Sequence record: MZ892903.1
Strand: one strand, 5' to 3'
Origin: Escherichia phage ELT1
DNA: 64,000 nt
In this document: positions 6,389 through 18,281 of the stretch, piece by piece
How the letters are laid out: each line of letters opens with the position of its first letter
Numbering within the stretch: position 1 is the stretch's first letter
Made by a program: the position numbers and the translations under genes
Notes under the pieces: model-generated
Database searches by the model: none
Seen by the model: only the letters and a program-made list of their open reading frames with translations
Told to the model about the DNA's origin: nothing

Positions 6389-6862
6389 TTATTTGAACGA
6401 TTTAACGTACTGAATAGAACCTTTACTATTCACGAAAGCGATTTTACCATTTTTATTATACATGGTAGCAGTACGCTGATAGCCATAAGTTTGCTTACCA
6501 GATTGATAACCAACTAATGCAAAATTATCTTCACCCATTTTATTCTGTTTAGCGCGAATGCGTTCATGACCATGTGCCATAAGAACCTTAGCATCACCAG
6601 TTGCAATGGATCGACGAGTTTTTTCATCTTCAACTGTATTAACAAAGTCGTCAAATGAATCAAATTTAGCATGAGATTTATTATACAGTTTTCCATCTAC
6701 TGCATAATTATATCCCTGTACATCCATCTCAACTTCTGTACCATCATCCAATACAGCAGTGATTTTCTGTCCTTTTTTAAATTTCAAAAGATCAGTAAAA
6801 GATTCAGCAATAATTTGAGAATTAATAGCTGCTTCAGTAATAAATTCTTGATATGTTTTCAT
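6389..6862 (-). CDS. internal head protein (IPIII/IPII-like) with capsid-targeting N-terminus
   Basis: 157 aa starting MKTYQEFITE|A, the T4 internal-protein targeting sequence with an xxE cleavage context; immediately upstream of e. Confidence 0.65.
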   Translation of the reverse strand: MKTYQEFITEAAINSQIIAESFTDLLKFKKGQKITAVLDDGTEVEMDVQGYNYAVDGKLYNKSHAKFDSFDDFVNTVEDEKTRRSIATGDAKVLMAHGHERIRAKQNKMGEDNFALVGYQSGKQTYGYQRTATMYNKNGKIAFVNSKGSIQYVKSFK

Positions 6863-7490: not shown

Positions 7491-7946
7491 TTAAAAGAGG
7501 TTGTTCATTATTCGGTAAAGTGAAGGACCCATCACATATTGCCACTGAGTACGAGGAATAAGAGCAAAAGCGTCCATCTCTGGAATCATAACACCATCTT
7601 TATTTTCAAAATAAGACTCACAATGGCAATTTCTAAACATCTCATGCTCTACTGGAATCGTATAATAAAATAACTGTAAGTCTTTATTACTAGAATATTT
7701 AAATACACCTAGGTCTTCTAGAAGGTCTGGATTATAATTGCTAAAACCGGTCTCTTCTAAGCATTCTCTTTTTGCAGCTTCCAGTGCATTCAAATCAGAA
7801 CTTTCTACACGTCCCTTTGGAATATCCCAGCGATGTGCCATCATTCCAGGCTTACGAGAACCAGTAACCCGACCCATAAATAAATCTTTATCTTCTGTCA
7901 TGAAGATAATACCAGCTGATAATGTTTTCATTTTAATTTCCTGCAT
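7491..7946 (-). CDS. nudE: Nudix hydrolase NudE (e.1)
   Basis: Nudix box ...KRECLEETGF...; adjacent to e; alternative start Met at 7931 (ATGA-coupled). Confidence 0.85.
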   Translation of the reverse strand: MQEIKMKTLSAGIIFMTEDKDLFMGRVTGSRKPGMMAHRWDIPKGRVESSDLNALEAAKRECLEETGFSNYNPDLLEDLGVFKYSSNKDLQLFYYTIPVEHEMFRNCHCESYFENKDGVMIPEMDAFALIPRTQWQYVMGPSLYRIMNNLF

Positions 7947-8119
7947 TCAGTGATAAAGTTATTTAAATTTTGAGCATATTTCTTTTCATCAAAAATCTTT
8001 TGCTGTCTGCGTAAACGCCATGGCATTTCAATGAACATACGCCATATTCCTGATAATACTGCTGCTGTAAAAATATTAACAAGTATAGTTAAAAGAACCC
8101 AATCTCCTATTCTGTCCAT
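7928..8119 (-). CDS. small membrane protein
   Basis: 63 aa with one hydrophobic helix. Confidence 0.45.
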   Translation of the reverse strand: MDRIGDWVLLTILVNIFTAAVLSGIWRMFIEMPWRLRRQQKIFDEKKYAQNLNNFITECRKLK

Positions 8120-8415
8120 TGGATTTTTATAAAAAAGTAAAATACGAACGATGATATAGGAAGACTAATGATATACCACAGAATAACCTTCTTATCTGTG
8201 AACCAATCGGCATTCGTTAACTTAGCGCGACCATTTTGAATACACACGAATTTATCATCTGTTACAGTAAATGGTTTAGCTGCTTGATATCCCATTCTAA
8301 ACTCCCTAATTAATCGTTTCTTTGTATCTTCGGAACAACCATTCCAATCAACTCTATCAACTGAAATGCCATCATCCCCATCATCTAAATCATACCAGCG
8401 AGTTTTTAAAATCAT
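8107..8415 (-). CDS. hypothetical protein with C-terminal transmembrane anchor
   Basis: 102 aa; ATGA overlap with upstream gene. Confidence 0.45.
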   Translation of the reverse strand: MILKTRWYDLDDGDDGISVDRVDWNGCSEDTKKRLIREFRMGYQAAKPFTVTDDKFVCIQNGRAKLTNADWFTDKKVILWYIISLPISSFVFYFFIKIQWTE

Positions 8416-12138: not shown

Positions 12139-12217
12139 ATTTTCCTCACTTAAAGTTGGTGCCTCTAGAAAGATTTGAACTCTCACCATTAACCTTAGAA
12201 CGATTATATGCTATCCA

Positions 12218-12889
12218 TTACACTATAGAGGCAATTAAATTATTTACAATATCTTCTTTATAAACTTCAGCATAATGAAGTTCATATATTTCCCATCCTA
12301 ATGATTTTATAATATCATGGCGTTCTTTATAATAAGGGGCCAAAATCTTTTTCTTAGGATTGGAGTAATGTTGGTTTCCATTAACTTCAATAATAATCTT
12401 TTTATCTATTAAAGCAATATCCGCGCAATACGCTCGGTTTTTAACCGGTTGGTATTCTTCAATAAATGAAATTCCGTTTTCTATTAATTTAGATTTCAAA
12501 AATTCACAAGGCACAGATTTAAATTTTGTATTTTTCTTCCAAGGATGTTTATCGGGGTTTTCATTCAACCATTTTTTCCGAGCATTAGATATTTTTATTC
12601 TAGATTCCTCAGAGTGTTCTCTACCTAATGAAGCGGCTGACCATTTTTGTCTAGTCTCTTCCGAAATTACTACAGGAACACCAGTCTTTTTAGATACAAC
12701 ATACTGGTTTAAATTACCTGAAGCTATACGTGCTTTATTCATTGCTGCAATGGCTGATTTAGAACTTTCTTTATACAATTCCAATTTAGGGTTGGATTTA
12801 CACCATCTAGTGTGGTTAGCCATCCATCCTTTAGGTTTATTAGAAATATCAAATTCCATATTACAATGTTTACAAATTCTCATTACCAA
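12218..12889 (-). CDS. putative freestanding homing endonuclease: N-terminal Zn-finger-like, NUMOD3 motifs, C-terminal Vsr/DUF559-like (PD-(D/E)xK) domain
   Basis: 223 aa; CKHC...HTRWC; NUMOD3-like LGREHSEESRIKISNARKKW; C-terminus ...YCADIALIDKKIIIEVNGNQHY...ERHDIIKSLGWEIYEL; no GIY-YIG motif although it sits where T4 has segB. Confidence 0.55.
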   Translation of the reverse strand: MVMRICKHCNMEFDISNKPKGWMANHTRWCKSNPKLELYKESSKSAIAAMNKARIASGNLNQYVVSKKTGVPVVISEETRQKWSAASLGREHSEESRIKISNARKKWLNENPDKHPWKKNTKFKSVPCEFLKSKLIENGISFIEEYQPVKNRAYCADIALIDKKIIIEVNGNQHYSNPKKKILAPYYKERHDIIKSLGWEIYELHYAEVYKEDIVNNLIASIV

Positions 12890-12957
12890 TTATCTCCTAT
12901 AAAATATAGGAGTATTTATTATTTGGATAGAGCACTTAATTTACTTCGTTTAAATTA

Positions 12958-13029
12958 CTGGCGCACTTGGACTCGAACCAAGATAAAGGAGTTAACAGCT
13001 CCCCGTAATAACCTTTATACGATGCACCA
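12958..13029 (-). tRNA. tRNA-Asn (anticodon GUU), 3-bp D-stem, no encoded CCA
   Basis: Manual fold: acceptor TGGTGCA/TGCGCCA (one G-U), T-arm CTTGG-TTCGAGT-CCAAG, anticodon loop CTGTTAA. Confidence 0.55.
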
Positions 13030-13035
13030 TTTGTT

Positions 13036-13110
13036 TGGTGACCCTGGCTGGTTTCGATCCAGCTACCTATCAGTTATGAGCTGACAGCTCTCCCATTGAG
13101 CTACAGGGCC
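13036..13110 (-). tRNA. tRNA-Ile (anticodon CAU, T4 tRNA-Ile type; Met/Ile formally ambiguous), CCA encoded
   Basis: Acceptor GGCCCTG/CAGGGTC, anticodon loop CTCATAA, T-arm GCTGG-ATCGAAA-CCAGC. Confidence 0.7.
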
Positions 13111-13116
13111 TTGATA

Positions 13117-13189
13117 TGCTGATTGACGGAATCGAACCGCCGACGTCCTCATTACAAGTGAGGTGCTCTACCTACTGAGCTAAATCAGC
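13117..13189 (-). tRNA. tRNA-Thr (anticodon UGU)
   Basis: Cloverleaf GCTGATTTAGCTCAGTAGGTAGAGC...CTTGTAA...GGTTCGATTCC... Confidence 0.8.
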
Positions 13190-13196
13190 GAAATTA

Positions 13197-13283
13197 CGGA
13201 GGCGATAGGATTTGAACCTATGAGTCGCCGGAGCGACTGCCGGTTTTCAAGACCGGTGCATTAAACCACTCTGCCACGCCTCC
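13197..13283 (-). tRNA. tRNA-Ser (anticodon UGA), long variable arm
   Basis: Reverse complement matches T4 tRNA-Ser as recalled (GGAGGCGTGGCAGAGTGG...CTTGAAA...). Confidence 0.9.
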
Positions 13284-13285
13284 AG

Positions 13286-13359
13286 TCTCCGTGGCAGGAT
13301 TTGAACCTACGACATTCTGCTCCCAAAGCAGACGCTCTACCAAACTGAGCTACACGGAG
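13286..13359 (-). tRNA. tRNA-Pro (anticodon UGG)
   Basis: Acceptor CTCCGTG/CACGGAG, anticodon loop TTTGGGA, T-loop TTCAAAT. Confidence 0.85.
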
Positions 13360-13369
13360 TAAATTAAAT

Positions 13370-13443
<74 letters not shown>

Positions 13444-13448
13444 AAATT

Positions 13449-13535
13449 TGGTGCGAGAAGTGGGACTCGAACCCACAAGGAAATCATTCCGCAGCATTTT
13501 AAGTGCTGTGCCTTTACCAATTTGACCATTCTCGC
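13449..13535 (-). tRNA. tRNA-Leu (anticodon UAA), long variable arm, CCA encoded
   Basis: Acceptor GCGAGAA/TTCTCGC, anticodon loop CTTAAAA, T-arm GTGGG-TTCGAGT-CCCAC. Confidence 0.85.
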
Positions 13536-13536
13536 G

Positions 13537-13609
13537 CTGGGAATAAAGGACTCGAACCTTTGCATCTAGCAGTCAAAGTGCTATGCCTTACCAACTTGGC
13601 TAATTCCCA
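13537..13609 (-). tRNA. tRNA-Gln (anticodon UUG)
   Basis: Acceptor TGGGAAT/ATTCCCA, anticodon loop CTTTGAC; 1-nt spacer to tRNA-Leu (dimeric precursor arrangement). Confidence 0.85.
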
Positions 13610-13675: not shown

Positions 13676-13708
13676 TTAATAATAACAAATAATTCTTAAA
13701 GCAAATTA
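13676..13708 (-). promoter_or_regulatory. possible MotA-dependent middle promoter for the tRNA cluster
   Basis: Minus strand reads TTTGCTTTA (Mot-box-like), 12 nt, then TATTAT; about 60 nt upstream of tRNA-Gln 5' end. Confidence 0.25.
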
Positions 13709-14220
13709 AACATTTTAACAGTCGGCAAAACAATTTCTTTTTCTATATAAGAGTATTTAACACTCTCAACTACACGCAGAAAATCATAATCATAATATTC
13801 AGAAGCACTGCCTAAAATATTAATAAGTCCTTCAAGCACTTTATTACCGTTCGTAAAGAATAAGTCAAATACACGTTCTTCGTCTTCTTCGGATTTATTA
13901 CCAAGGTCAACTTCTATATCAAAGACCTTTTTAATGAATTCTGAACAAAGCTGGTCTGAGAATAGTCCTTCAACCAAGTATTCATAAATAAAAAGTGATT
14001 GCTCGCTGAACAAGCCATTACCACAATAACGTTCAGCTTTAGTACTAGAATGTCTGCTTTTAAACTTCTTTAAAAGATATTGGAATTGTAAGATTTCATA
14101 CTCTTCTACGCCAAACAATGTTTTGGTTTTATAGTTGTCACCATCATTTTCCCATGTAGTTACATCAATTACGTAACCCTGCGGAATTGTAGTACCTAAA
14201 CAAATATTCATTTTCACCAC
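13696..14220 (-). CDS. hypothetical protein
   Basis: 174-aa ORF. Confidence 0.5.
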   Translation of the reverse strand: MVKMNICLGTTIPQGYVIDVTTWENDGDNYKTKTLFGVEEYEILQFQYLLKKFKSRHSSTKAERYCGNGLFSEQSLFIYEYLVEGLFSDQLCSEFIKKVFDIEVDLGNKSEEDEERVFDLFFTNGNKVLEGLINILGSASEYYDYDFLRVVESVKYSYIEKEIVLPTVKMFNLL

Positions 14221-15136: not shown

Positions 15137-15182
15137 TTTGTGAAAAATTTATTACAAAAGATTTTTAGCAATAATTTTAAGC

Positions 15183-15437
15183 TCAGCTTAAAATATGCTT
15201 GGCTTTAAACAAAGCAGTTTCTTCAGCAGGGGAGATAACGATTGTAGCACCATCTTTCTTAGCGGACCATCCATCACCCAGGTAAACAGTACCTTTGATT
15301 TCTTCGCCATCAACCAGACTAATCATTGGTTTACCTTCTCGTCCTTTATTTGCTTTAATAACTTCAGAAGTAAGAGTAGCCTCGGTAATGGTAGAAACCG
15401 GGGTAGTTGTAGAAGTAAATTCTTTGAAAGTTTTCAT
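15183..15437 (-). CDS. ipI: internal protein I-like (capsid-targeted; T4 IPI is an anti-restriction protein)
   Basis: 84 aa starting MKTFKEF...ITE|A (targeting sequence and xxE cleavage context); located between tRNA region and 57B as T4 ipI. Confidence 0.6.
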   Translation of the reverse strand: MKTFKEFTSTTTPVSTITEATLTSEVIKANKGREGKPMISLVDGEEIKGTVYLGDGWSAKKDGATIVISPAEETALFKAKHILS

Positions 15438-15461
15438 TTTATTTTCCTAATTAATTTTGAT

Positions 15462-15500
15462 GAGATAATAGTATCACTACCTCATCAACGTGTAAACAAC
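15462..15500 (-). promoter_or_regulatory. T4 early-type promoter upstream of ipI-like gene
   Basis: Minus strand TTGTTTACA, 17 nt, GTGATACTATTAT. Confidence 0.45.
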
Positions 15501-15509
15501 TTTGTGAAA

Positions 15510-16194
<685 letters not shown>

Positions 16195-16195
<1 letters not shown>

Positions 16196-16920
16196 TATAG
16201 TACCTTTAGTGTATTTTTAATTTTAGAAAAAAGTTCTTCAAGAGAACCATCGTTTGTAATTACTAAATCGCCATCACGAATTGGCAATCCAGCTTCTGTA
16301 ATATGTGTATCATTGGATTTTTGACCAGGACGAACTACATGAATTACTGTAGCACCCATCGCCCTAGCCGCATCCATTTCATGATCTTGACGGGTATCAG
16401 GAACGATATAATAATCATAACCTGAGTTAAATTTATCAAGATAATCTAAAGCAAATAATTTTACCCAGTACATGCGGTCGAAGTTATTAACAATCAAATC
16501 CGTACCTAGGGCTTGCATCAGACGACGGACTGACCATTGATCTTCAATATTATTTATAACGTCAGCAATCTTGTTAAATGCTACGGAATCAACTGATTCT
16601 TGTCCTTCGTCCTCAAAAACACACACACCTTTAATTGGGCTTTTACTATTAAGATAGCAAAATGCTTGTTCCATAATCGTGATTACTTCTGATTTAGTCA
16701 GATTTAAATTAGTCTCACGATCATAGTCAATTCCTTCAAACTCTTTACGAGTTAAGCAAGGATAGTCAGTGTTTTCTGCAAATACACCCCATGCATAAGC
16801 CAATGCATCTTTAATAGGACCAGCAAGTTGATATTTAACCGCAGAATAATTGCTCATGATAAAATCAGCAGTAGTATCTTTTCCACTACGCTTTACACCA
16901 CTTAAAAAGATTAGTTTCAT
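16195..16920 (-). CDS. 1: deoxynucleoside monophosphate kinase (gp1)
   Basis: 241 aa, P-loop GVKRSGKDT; T4 gp1 length and position. Confidence 0.95.
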
Positions 16921-17606: not shown

Positions 17607-18281
17607 TTAATTTATTAGACTTCTTAAACGAGCAGAAGTCATAAATGGAAATTTTTCTAAAGTTGGCTTTCGCCAATATCTTGGATGACAAGTTGATTTA
17701 AAATCAAGAACAATTTTCTTTGCTTCATCAATAGTGTTAACTCCAAAGTTATCTAACATTATTTTCTTTTCTTTTTCCCACCGTTTATTAGCTAAAGCAG
17801 ATTGAAGCTTTTTGTTTTTAAATGTGTCATTTTTTCTAGAATGAGTTGTTCCTTGTGTCGGACTCCATCCTCTTCCTAAAATAAATCCCTCAGGAATTAT
17901 ATCTCCATCATGTAATTTTATACATCTTTTACCATTATTATAATATTTTCGTCCAGTTTGTGTATTTGAAATATTATTTGCATGTTTTCTTTTTAACCAA
18001 CCATAAACTTTATTATTTCTCCTAACATATTTAGTTGAAACCGTCATTTTTATGGCTGCATAAGATAATTTTAAAGAATTTGGGTGTATTTTTACTAATA
18101 GCTGATGTGCAACATAATGCTCTTCTGGAGTTAAATCAACCAAGTTAGAAGCATCATTACTACCGCCTAAACATTTCGGAATAATATGATGTCTTTCTTT
18201 ATATCCAGTAAGGGCTCTATTGCGAGCCCTATCAATTAGTGAATTATAAATTTTTTCATAATTCATCGTACATTGCTCCAA
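17607..18281 (-). CDS. freestanding HNH homing endonuclease (mob-like)
   Basis: 224 aa; HNH motif [32 protein letters not shown]; inserted between genes 3 and 2. Confidence 0.8.

What the first reader, a model, noticed from the sequence alone, without database searches (positions are those of the whole stretch)
15183..15437. Divergent IPI-like internal protein with capsid-targeting sequence
The ORF starts MKTFKEF...ITE|A, the T4 internal-protein targeting sequence plus an xxE context for the prohead protease, but the mature part is short (about 65 aa) and differs in length from T4 IPI as I recall it. IPI in T4 is injected with the DNA and blocks a host restriction system. Divergent IP genes at this locus are candidates for new anti-defence specificities.
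Basis: partly seen in the sequence, partly recalled or inferred. Interest (0 to 1): 0.55.

Follow-up and report, generated by a model that had tools for sequence, protein, structure and literature searches.

The report
Frameshift-truncated copy of T4 ipI gene
This is not a divergent new internal protein but the well-known T4 gene ipI (the injected inhibitor of the GmrSD restriction enzyme), identical to T4 for its first 82 residues and cut short by one private frameshift that removes its last helix.

Summary
The ORF at 15183-15437 (minus strand, 84 aa) is real. It is not divergent. Residues 1-82 are 100% identical to T4 IPI, and residues 20-82 equal residues 1-63 of the solved IPI* structure 2JUB. 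It sits in the canonical slot: gene 1, 57A, 57B/Acb1, ipI, tRNA.4.

It is short because of a frameshift near the 3' end. Other alleles are 94-96 aa in the phage records aligned and almost all 95 aa among the homologue clusters, ending ...KAKHIS(A/V)A(H/Q)LKIIAKNLL. The window reads ...KAKHILS*. Against the closest allele (PhiZZ30 type) it differs within 12 nt by C>T, a 2-bp deletion and C>G. A single quasipalindrome template switch reproduces the window sequence exactly and leaves a perfect 10+1+10 palindrome.

The codons for the lost C-terminal helix are still present, out of frame. This allele was absent from every collection searched. In a 38-kb comparison the only other frame disruption (an e.2-like gene) sits at a site where some phage records have the window's length, so a genuine private mutation is more likely than a sequencing error.

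The protein is probably still packaged and cleaved. It lacks the conserved C-terminal helix, so it is likely a weakened or dead GmrSD inhibitor. Known gene, low interest.

The parts
15183..15437 (-). ipI ORF, 84 aa including the propeptide, ending at a premature TGA (15183-15185). This is a truncated allele of T4 internal protein I.
   Evidence: The ORF is listed. It is 100% identical to T4 IPI over aa 1-82. Pfam IPI_T4 PF11634 scores E=2e-44 but matches only profile positions 1-63 of 76. PHROG 4363 'internal virion protein' also hits.
15381..15437 (-). Capsid-targeting propeptide (aa 1-19, MKTFKEFTSTTTPVSTITE), removed by the gp21 prohead protease after Glu19.
   Evidence: It is identical to T4. 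PDB 2JUB chain A (IPI*) starts at the next residue, Ala20. IP propeptides are 10-19 residues long and act as capsid-targeting sequences (PMC9026906).
15186..15380 (-). Mature part, 65 aa (63 aa of authentic IPI* plus Leu-Ser), against 76 aa in T4 IPI*.
   Evidence: The AF2 model keeps the N-terminal helix and the beta core (pLDDT about 80-87) but has a disordered tail at residues 75-84.
15174..15194 (.). Mutation site: a perfect palindrome ATTTTAAGCT-G-AGCTTAAAAT (10-bp arms, centre at 15184). The ancestral quasipalindrome had only 4-bp arms.
   Evidence: Alignment with five other alleles. The script replaced ATTTCAGTAGCTC with the reverse complement of CAGCTTAAAAT and reproduced the window sequence exactly. 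The 26-mer is unique in the window and absent from viral, genome and metagenome contig collections.
15152..15187 (-). Out-of-frame remnant of the original 3' end: GCT GAG CTT AAA ATT ATT GCT AAA AAT CTT TTG TAA = AELKIIAKNLL*, the C-terminal helix codons plus the original stop.
   Evidence: Read directly from the sequence. It matches the ...LKIIAKNLL* ending of all full-length alleles.
15457..15509 (-). Early-promoter/stem-loop cassette (PeSL type) upstream of ipI: -35 TTTACA, 17-nt spacer, -10 TACTAT.
   Evidence: It is one copy of a 53-nt direct repeat. The promoter scan finds it. It corresponds to PE2 and its stem-loop in T4 record X03016. It fits the T4/PST PeSL consensus TTTACW-N17-TAYWAT (PMC4122927).
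15093..15145 (-). Second copy of the same cassette, just downstream of ipI. It is the promoter of tRNA.4 and the putative ipI terminator stem-loop.
   Evidence: It corresponds to PE1 and the 'pot. IpI terminator' in X03016.
15510..15968 (-). Upstream neighbour 57B (Acb1 family), which fixes the synteny of the locus.
   Evidence: Pfam Acb1 PF23474 E=2.7e-60. The gene order 1-57A-57B-ipI-tRNA.4-tRNA.3-tRNA.2 matches T4, RB14 and PhiZZ30.

Best explanation
The ORF is the ipI gene of an unrecorded Tequatrovirus (T4-like phage). In T4, IPI is made as a precursor whose 19-residue N-terminal capsid-targeting sequence carries it into the prohead core. The gp21 protease then cuts after ITE. About 360 copies of the 76-residue IPI* are injected with the DNA and inhibit the CT596-type GmrSD type IV restriction enzyme, which cleaves glucosyl-hmC DNA.

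In this genome a single mutational event hit codons 83-86. It was a replication template switch within a quasipalindrome, which homogenised the arms and inverted the central base. That shifted the reading frame, so translation ends at ...KAKHI-LS* and the 13 C-terminal residues are lost, including the C-terminal alpha-helix.

Shown here:
- identity with T4 IPI and the conserved locus;
- the exact nature of the sequence change;
- its absence from every collection searched;
- conservation of the lost segment in distant homologues.

Inferred:
- the truncated protein is still expressed, packaged and cleaved, because the promoter, RBS and CTS are intact;
- it is a weakened or inactive GmrSD inhibitor, so this is a decaying or null allele of a known anti-restriction gene rather than a new one.
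For: Identity:
- tblastn gives 100% over aa 1-82 to T4 and about 80 other records, with 291 records matching in all.
- Pfam IPI_T4 scores 149.7 bits against a cutoff of 25.
- PDB 2JUB residues 1-63 equal window aa 20-82.
- Synteny matches T4, RB14 and PhiZZ30.

Frameshift:
- DNA alignments show a 2-bp gap plus two flanking substitutions relative to every other allele.
- All 169 megablast hits to the 111-nt 3' segment are below 99% identity, and each of the 30 best rows listed spans 112-113 nt.

Single-event mechanism:
- The template-switch prediction equals the observed sequence, and the palindrome arms grow from 4 to 10 bp.
- Arm homogenisation plus spacer inversion is the described signature of inverted-repeat template switching (abstract of PMC8604942).

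Real mutation rather than error:
- It is a complex change, not a homopolymer indel.
- Of 57 CDS of phage BMB16 compared over 38 kb, 50 align end to end in a single frame, two have no counterpart and three others are divergent, variant-length or split in BMB16 itself. Only ipI and an e.2-like gene are frame-disrupted in the window.
- At the e.2-like site two other phages (fPS-2, AV121) have the same length as the window, and AV121 annotates two proteins there.

Importance of the lost part:
- The C-terminal I-S-x-x-x-(L/F)-x-(I/W)-(L/I)-x-K pattern persists in homologues down to 47-62% identity.
- AF2 places a helix at residues 84-94 of full-length IPI, and it is missing from the truncated model.

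Function of the family: PMC4437046 and PMC12373910.
Against: - No reads are available, so an assembly or consensus artefact cannot be excluded.
- The allele is seen only here.
- Loss of function is inferred, not tested. The N-terminal helix and beta core are intact and model with the same confidence as in the full-length protein, so partial activity is possible.
- The AF2 models are only moderately confident (pLDDT about 71). The full-length model superposes poorly on 2JUB (TM 0.38-0.45), so only secondary structure is used.
- The primary structure paper (Rifat et al. 2008) was not available to read.
Confidence: 0.6

Rival explanations
1. Sequencing, assembly or amplification artefact. The phage really carries an intact 94-95-aa ipI, and the palindrome arose in vitro (for example by polymerase template switching during library amplification) or through consensus error.
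For: The allele is private. The exact 84-aa product is not on record. The 26-mer is absent from viral, genome and metagenome contigs and from all 169 phage records matching this segment. Template switching can also occur in vitro.
Against: - Three coordinated changes that create a perfect palindrome are not a typical base-calling or homopolymer error.
- An in-vitro chimera would have to dominate the consensus.
- The rest of the 38-kb region compared shows no window-specific frame breaks.
Confidence: 0.2
2. Real truncation, but the 65-aa IPI* is still a competent inhibitor of CT596-type GmrSD because the C-terminal helix is dispensable. The gene would then be functionally ordinary ipI.
For: The CTS, N-terminal helix and beta core are unchanged. 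The core models with the same confidence with or without the tail. The ORF remains open with its promoter and RBS.
Against: The C-terminal segment is conserved across all full-length homologues, including those at 47-62% identity. The whole fold with both terminal helices is stated to be required for activity (PMC3012670). 13 of 76 mature residues are lost.
Confidence: 0.17
3. One reading: a divergent IPI-like internal protein with a new anti-defence specificity.
For: The ipI locus is a known hotspot of IP gene replacement, and different IPs inhibit different GmrSD variants (PMC12373910; PMC3012670). RB14 carries an extra ip5 at this locus.
Against: The protein is 100% identical to T4 IPI up to the frameshift. 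The only novelty is the two residues Leu-Ser and a deletion. The original C-terminal codons are still recognisable out of frame, which marks a recent lesion rather than an evolved new domain.
Confidence: 0.03

Closest known systems
Bacteriophage T4 internal protein I (IPI / IPI*, gene ipI; Pfam PF11634 IPI_T4; PDB 2JUB)
   Same: - Residues 1-82 are identical, including the 19-residue capsid-targeting propeptide and the ITE|A gp21 site.
- The genomic slot is the same, between 57B and tRNA.4.
- The flanking early-promoter cassettes are the same.
   Different: The last 13 residues (SAAHLKIIAKNLL in T4, SVAQLKIIAKNLL in the nearest allele) are replaced by LS*. The mature product is 65 aa instead of 76 and lacks the C-terminal helix.
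PhiZZ30 / SfPhi01 / F1-type ipI alleles (Tequatrovirus)
   Same: These are the closest DNA relatives of the 3' half of the gene (96-97% identity). They carry the quasipalindrome ATTT-CAGT-AGCT-C-AGCT-TAAAAT, from which the window sequence derives in one step.
   Different: They are intact at 94-96 aa. They have V47 where the window and T4 have I47.
Other frameshifted ipI alleles in databases (for example Escherichia phage BYEP02 'nuclease inhibitor', 78 aa, P0033; and P0039, 83 aa)
   Same: These are also IPI_T4 family members whose C-terminal part is replaced by out-of-frame sequence. Disrupted ipI genes therefore recur.
   Different: Their breakpoints are different and further upstream. None has the palindrome mutation seen here.
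Quasipalindrome-associated template-switch mutations (Ripley model; first demonstrated in T4 rII, from my own knowledge; reviewed in PMC7202029 and PMC8604942)
   Same: A complex multinucleotide change that perfects an imperfect inverted repeat and inverts the spacer base (abstracts).
   Different: Here it is a natural allele in an anti-restriction gene rather than a selected laboratory revertant or mutant. The direction and timing of the event are inferred only from comparison with other alleles.

Membership tests
IPI_T4 (Pfam PF11634; T4 internal protein I) | Sequence match to the family model above the curated threshold | tested here: met
   149.7 bits against a gathering score of 25, E=2.2e-44. 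100% identity to T4 IPI over aa 1-82.
IPI_T4 (Pfam PF11634; T4 internal protein I) | N-terminal capsid-targeting propeptide ending in an (I/L)-x-E site for the gp21 prohead protease | tested here: met
   MKTFKEFTSTTTPVSTITE|A is identical to T4. The mature chain in 2JUB starts at the following Ala. Actual cleavage and packaging in this phage are not testable here.
IPI_T4 (Pfam PF11634; T4 internal protein I) | Location in the ipI locus between 57B and tRNA.4, flanked by early-promoter cassettes | tested here: met
   Gene order 1-57A-57B-ipI-tRNA.4-tRNA.3-tRNA.2, as in T4, RB14 and PhiZZ30. Repeated promoter cassettes are present.
IPI_T4 (Pfam PF11634; T4 internal protein I) | Complete 76-residue mature fold: two beta sheets flanked by N- and C-terminal helices | tested here: not met
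   The Pfam match stops at profile position 63 of 76. The frameshift removes residues 83-95. The C-terminal helix at 84-94 of the full-length model is absent from the window model. The fold description comes from PMC3012670.
IPI_T4 (Pfam PF11634; T4 internal protein I) | Inhibits CT596-type GmrSD and permits growth on restricting hosts | not testable with these tools
   This needs plating or co-expression assays. The activity is documented for full-length IPI* in PMC4437046 and PMC12373910.
IPI_T4 (Pfam PF11634; T4 internal protein I) | Present in virions (about 360 copies per head) and injected with the DNA | not testable with these tools
   Copy number is from PMC9026906. Virion mass spectrometry is required for this phage.
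Novel or divergent T-even internal protein (ip5-ip12 type replacement at the ipI locus) | A CTS joined to a mature domain unrelated to, or strongly diverged from, IPI | tested here: not met
   The mature domain is identical to IPI* for 63 of its 65 residues.

The most novel reading that the evidence does not exclude
The truncation is real and was selected rather than neutral. The helix-less 65-aa IPI* would still be packaged and injected, but would have altered target behaviour. It might inhibit an IPI*-immune GmrSD variant such as the UTI89-type enzyme, or escape a host factor that recognises full-length IPI*. In that case a one-step quasipalindrome switch would act as a quick way to re-tune or switch off an injected anti-restriction protein.
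Probability: 0.04. Interest if true: 0.5.

Novelty: already known. Interest (0 to 1): 0.12.

Why it matters
It matters little for discovery. ipI/IPI* is one of the best-characterised phage anti-restriction proteins, and this copy is identical to T4's up to a terminal lesion.

There are three practical points:
- Annotation pipelines will call this 'internal virion protein' or 'nuclease inhibitor', although the product probably lacks a required helix. Host-range predictions for this phage on GmrSD-carrying E. coli should not assume a working IPI.
- It is a clean natural example of a quasipalindrome template-switch mutation, with arm homogenisation and spacer inversion, inactivating an accessory anti-defence gene. 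This fits the view that such genes decay when the matching host defence is not being met (compare the loss of ipIII in PMC9391042).
- A short ORF at a hypervariable locus can look 'divergent' when it is simply frameshifted.

Tried and rejected
- Exact-product look-up of the 84-aa protein found nothing on record.
- Exact scans for the mutant 26-mer in viral contigs, genome contigs and metagenome contigs gave zero hits. The allele could not be shown to exist independently.
- I tried to read Rifat et al. 2008 (PMC2255585), Bair et al. 2007 (PMC1868451) and Repoila et al. 1994 (PMC395341). None is held, so the role of the C-terminal helix rests on a review sentence, on conservation and on AF2.
- The AF2 full-length model matched 2JUB only loosely (TM 0.38-0.45, rmsd 7.1 Å). 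I did not use its tertiary packing to argue about contacts of the C-terminal helix.
- Rescue by programmed frameshifting or transcriptional slippage was considered and rejected. Restoring AELKIIAKNLL needs a +1 shift at TTA-A-GCT. There is no X-XXY-YYZ heptamer in frame, no long A/T run (only T4) and no known +1 motif. This is my reading of the sequence, not a formal test.
- A divergent allele acquired by recombination was considered and rejected. No record is closer than 96.5% over the 3' segment, and the 30 best rows listed all span 112-113 nt for the 111-nt query, so none of them shares the 2-bp deletion.
- Poor assembly quality was checked. Of 57 reference CDS, only ipI and an e.2-like gene are frame-disrupted. 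At the e.2-like site, phages fPS-2 and AV121 have the window's length.
- Two literature search calls failed on syntax.

Full report
**Observation**

The window holds an ATG-initiated ORF of 84 codons at 15183..15437 on the minus strand. It has an AGGAAA Shine-Dalgarno a few bases upstream. Its product is MKTFKEFTSTTTPVSTITEATLTSEVIKANKGREGKPMISLVDGEEIKGTVYLGDGWSAKKDGATIVISPAEETALFKAKHILS. The coordinates are exact.

**What it is**

- tblastn against 50,697 phage records gave 291 records with a match. About 80 were at 99% identity or better, including T4 itself (X03016, 'internal capsid protein (Ip)I precursor'). The match was 100% over residues 1-82, E=1e-36.
- Pfam gives IPI_T4 (PF11634, 'Nuclease inhibitor from bacteriophage T4') at 149.7 bits, E=2e-44. 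The match covers only profile positions 1-63 of 76.
- PHROGs gives phrog_4363, 'internal virion protein'.
- The only solved-structure hit is 2JUB chain A, 'Internal protein I', 76 aa. Its residues 1-63 are identical to window residues 20-82.
- The neighbours are gene 1 dNMP kinase (16195-16920), 57A (15965-16195), 57B/Acb1 (15510-15968), then ipI, then tRNA.4, tRNA.3 and tRNA.2 homologues, then the tRNA cluster. This is the T4, RB14 and PhiZZ30 order.

So this is ipI itself, in its canonical place, in a Tequatrovirus. That phage is about 96% identical to the nearest records over 21 kb and is not itself in the phage collection.

**Why it is short**

T4 IPI is 95 aa. The five other alleles I aligned are 94-96 aa. 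Almost all of the 41 homologue clusters found in the large protein database are 95 aa.

DNA alignments show the window collinear with the other alleles except in a 12-nt stretch at codons 83-86:

| Allele | Sequence |
|---|---|
| PhiZZ30 / SfPhi01 / F1 / EC121 | CAT ATT TCA GTA GCT CAG CTT AAA ATT |
| Window | CAT ATT TTA AGC TGA (from CATATTTTA--AGCTGAGCTTAAAATT) |

The differences are C>T, loss of two bases, and C>G. Translation therefore ends ...KAKHI-L-S-stop. The original ending, GCT GAG CTT AAA ATT ATT GCT AAA AAT CTT TTG TAA (AELKIIAKNLL*), is still present at 15152-15187 in another frame. All 169 phage records that match this 111-nt segment are below 99% identity. Each of the 30 best rows listed spans 112-113 nt, so none of them shares the deletion.

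**How the lesion arose**

The ancestral sequence is a quasipalindrome, ATTT-CAGT-AGCT-C-AGCT-TAAAAT. In a script I replaced the left arm plus centre (ATTTCAGTAGCTC) with the reverse complement of the centre plus right arm (CAGCTTAAAAT gives ATTTTAAGCTG). The result equals the window sequence base for base. The perfect arms grow from 4 to 10 bp, and the predicted hairpin strengthens from -6.5 to -10.5 kcal/mol.

Homogenisation of inverted-repeat arms together with inversion of the spacer is the described signature of short-range polymerase template switching (abstracts of PMC8604942 and PMC7202029). From my own knowledge, it is also the classic Ripley quasipalindrome mechanism, first shown in T4 rII. 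One event therefore explains all three differences.

**Real or artefact?**

The allele is private.
- The exact 84-aa product is not on record among 153 billion gene positions.
- The mutant 26-mer is absent from the viral, genome and metagenome contig collections.

That leaves an artefact possible. Several points weigh against it.
- The change is a coordinated multinucleotide event, not a homopolymer slip.
- I translated 57 annotated CDS of phage BMB16 and aligned them to the window. Fifty aligned end to end in a single frame.
- Two have no counterpart in the window (a homing endonuclease and one ORF).
- Three are divergent, naturally variant in length (57A), or split in BMB16 itself (ip4). Only ipI and an e.2-like gene are frame-disrupted in the window.
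- At the e.2-like site, phages fPS-2 and AV121 have the same length as the window, and AV121 annotates two proteins there. That disruption is therefore probably not specific to this window.

I put about 0.75-0.8 on a genuine mutation.

**Consequence for the protein**

Shown:
- The promoter cassette (-35 TTTACA, 17-nt spacer, -10 TACTAT at 15496-15468), the RBS, the CTS and the cleavage site are all unchanged relative to T4.

Inferred from established T4 biology:
- A 10-residue CTS alone is sufficient to target even foreign proteins into the prohead (PMC9026906). The truncated protein should therefore still be packaged, cleaved and injected.

What is lost is the C-terminal segment.
- In an alignment of homologues down to 47-62% identity, this segment keeps an amphipathic pattern: IS..hL.II.K.L in close relatives, YIATKHFDILKKAL in Bp7, FTKDQVKWLSKI in the most distant.
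- AF2 on the full-length protein predicts a helix at residues 84-94 with pLDDT 74-80.
- The model of the window protein has no such helix, and residues 75-84 are disordered.

I therefore consider a hypomorphic or null GmrSD inhibitor the most likely outcome, at roughly 0.65 given that the mutation is real. This is inference. The AF2 models are only moderately confident, and the full-length one superposes loosely on 2JUB. I use them for secondary structure only.

**Comparison with what is known**

IPI* is the founding member of the injected anti-type-IV-restriction proteins.
- Ip2 and Ip3 were recently shown to inhibit other GmrSD variants with strict specificity (PMC12373910).
- The ipI locus is a known hotspot where other ip genes are swapped in, for example ip5 next to ipI in RB14. 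Conserved promoter/stem-loop cassettes (PeSLs) bracket the locus. The two 53-nt copies flanking this gene fit the T4/PST consensus TTTACW-N17-TAYWAT (PMC4122927).

The mature domain is IPI* itself.

Other frameshifted ipI alleles exist in databases (BYEP02 at 78 aa, and P0039 at 83 aa). Loss of unneeded anti-defence genes is well documented, for example ipIII in evolved T4 (PMC9391042). A decaying ipI is therefore unsurprising.

**Verdict**

The feature is an already-known gene carrying a private truncating mutation with a neat mechanistic signature. Interest is low (0.12).

The most novel reading not excluded is that the helix-less protein is a selected variant with altered target behaviour. 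I give it about 4%.

Noticed in passing
window 6389-6862 (-): This is the only other ORF in the window matching the MKT(F/Y)x(E/D)F propeptide start used in my scan. It is a 157-aa protein beginning MKTYQEFITE|A. It belongs to Pfam DUF7412 (E=6e-96) and is 100% identical to the 'ipIV internal virion protein' of phage GiZh and many others.
   Followed up: partly
window 15510-15968 (-): Gene 57B, directly upstream of ipI, matches Pfam Acb1 (anti-CBASS protein, E=2.7e-60). PHROGs and RefSeq label it 'RNA ligase'. An anti-CBASS gene and an anti-GmrSD gene therefore sit side by side, each behind its own early promoter cassette.
   Followed up: no
window 17607-18281 (-): A 224-aa ORF with weak HNH-endonuclease matches (E about 0.003-0.01, below Pfam cutoffs) lies between gene 3 and gene 2 and overlaps the 3' end of gene 2 by 19 nt. 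T4-type relatives RB14, PhiZZ30 and BMB16 have only about 100 nt there. It is probably a freestanding homing endonuclease insertion.
   Followed up: partly
window 7928-8415 (-): An e.2-like gene (162 aa in BMB16) is split into two ORFs (8107-8415 and 7928-8119). The split comes from a 1-nt length difference from HY03, SG1 and BMB16 inside an A/T-rich palindromic stretch, TTTTTATAAAAA. Phages fPS-2 and AV121 have the same length as the window, and AV121 annotates two proteins there. The sequence context again looks palindrome-associated.
   Followed up: partly
window 12157-13609 (-): The tRNA cluster has 9 genes (Arg, Asn, Met/Ile-CAU, Thr, Ser, Pro, Gly, Leu, Gln). The tRNA-Tyr present in RB14, PhiZZ30 and BMB16 is missing. 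A 223-aa SegB-like ORF (NUMOD3/DUF559 hits) at 12218-12889 lies between tRNA-Arg and tRNA-Asn and overlaps tRNA-Arg by 15 nt. BMB16 has no ORF there.
   Followed up: no
window 13696-14220 (-): A 174-aa ORF (phrog_2290, unknown function, no Pfam hit) lies between tRNA.2 and tRNA-Gln. It is not annotated in the T4 record X03016 or in RB14, but it is present in BMB16 (94% identity).
   Followed up: no
L007 (phage BMB16) 5988-6462: In the reference phage BMB16, ip4 is annotated as two CDS (112 aa and 39 aa), whereas the window has it intact. Frame disruptions of internal-protein genes therefore occur in both directions between close relatives, or in their assemblies.
   Followed up: no
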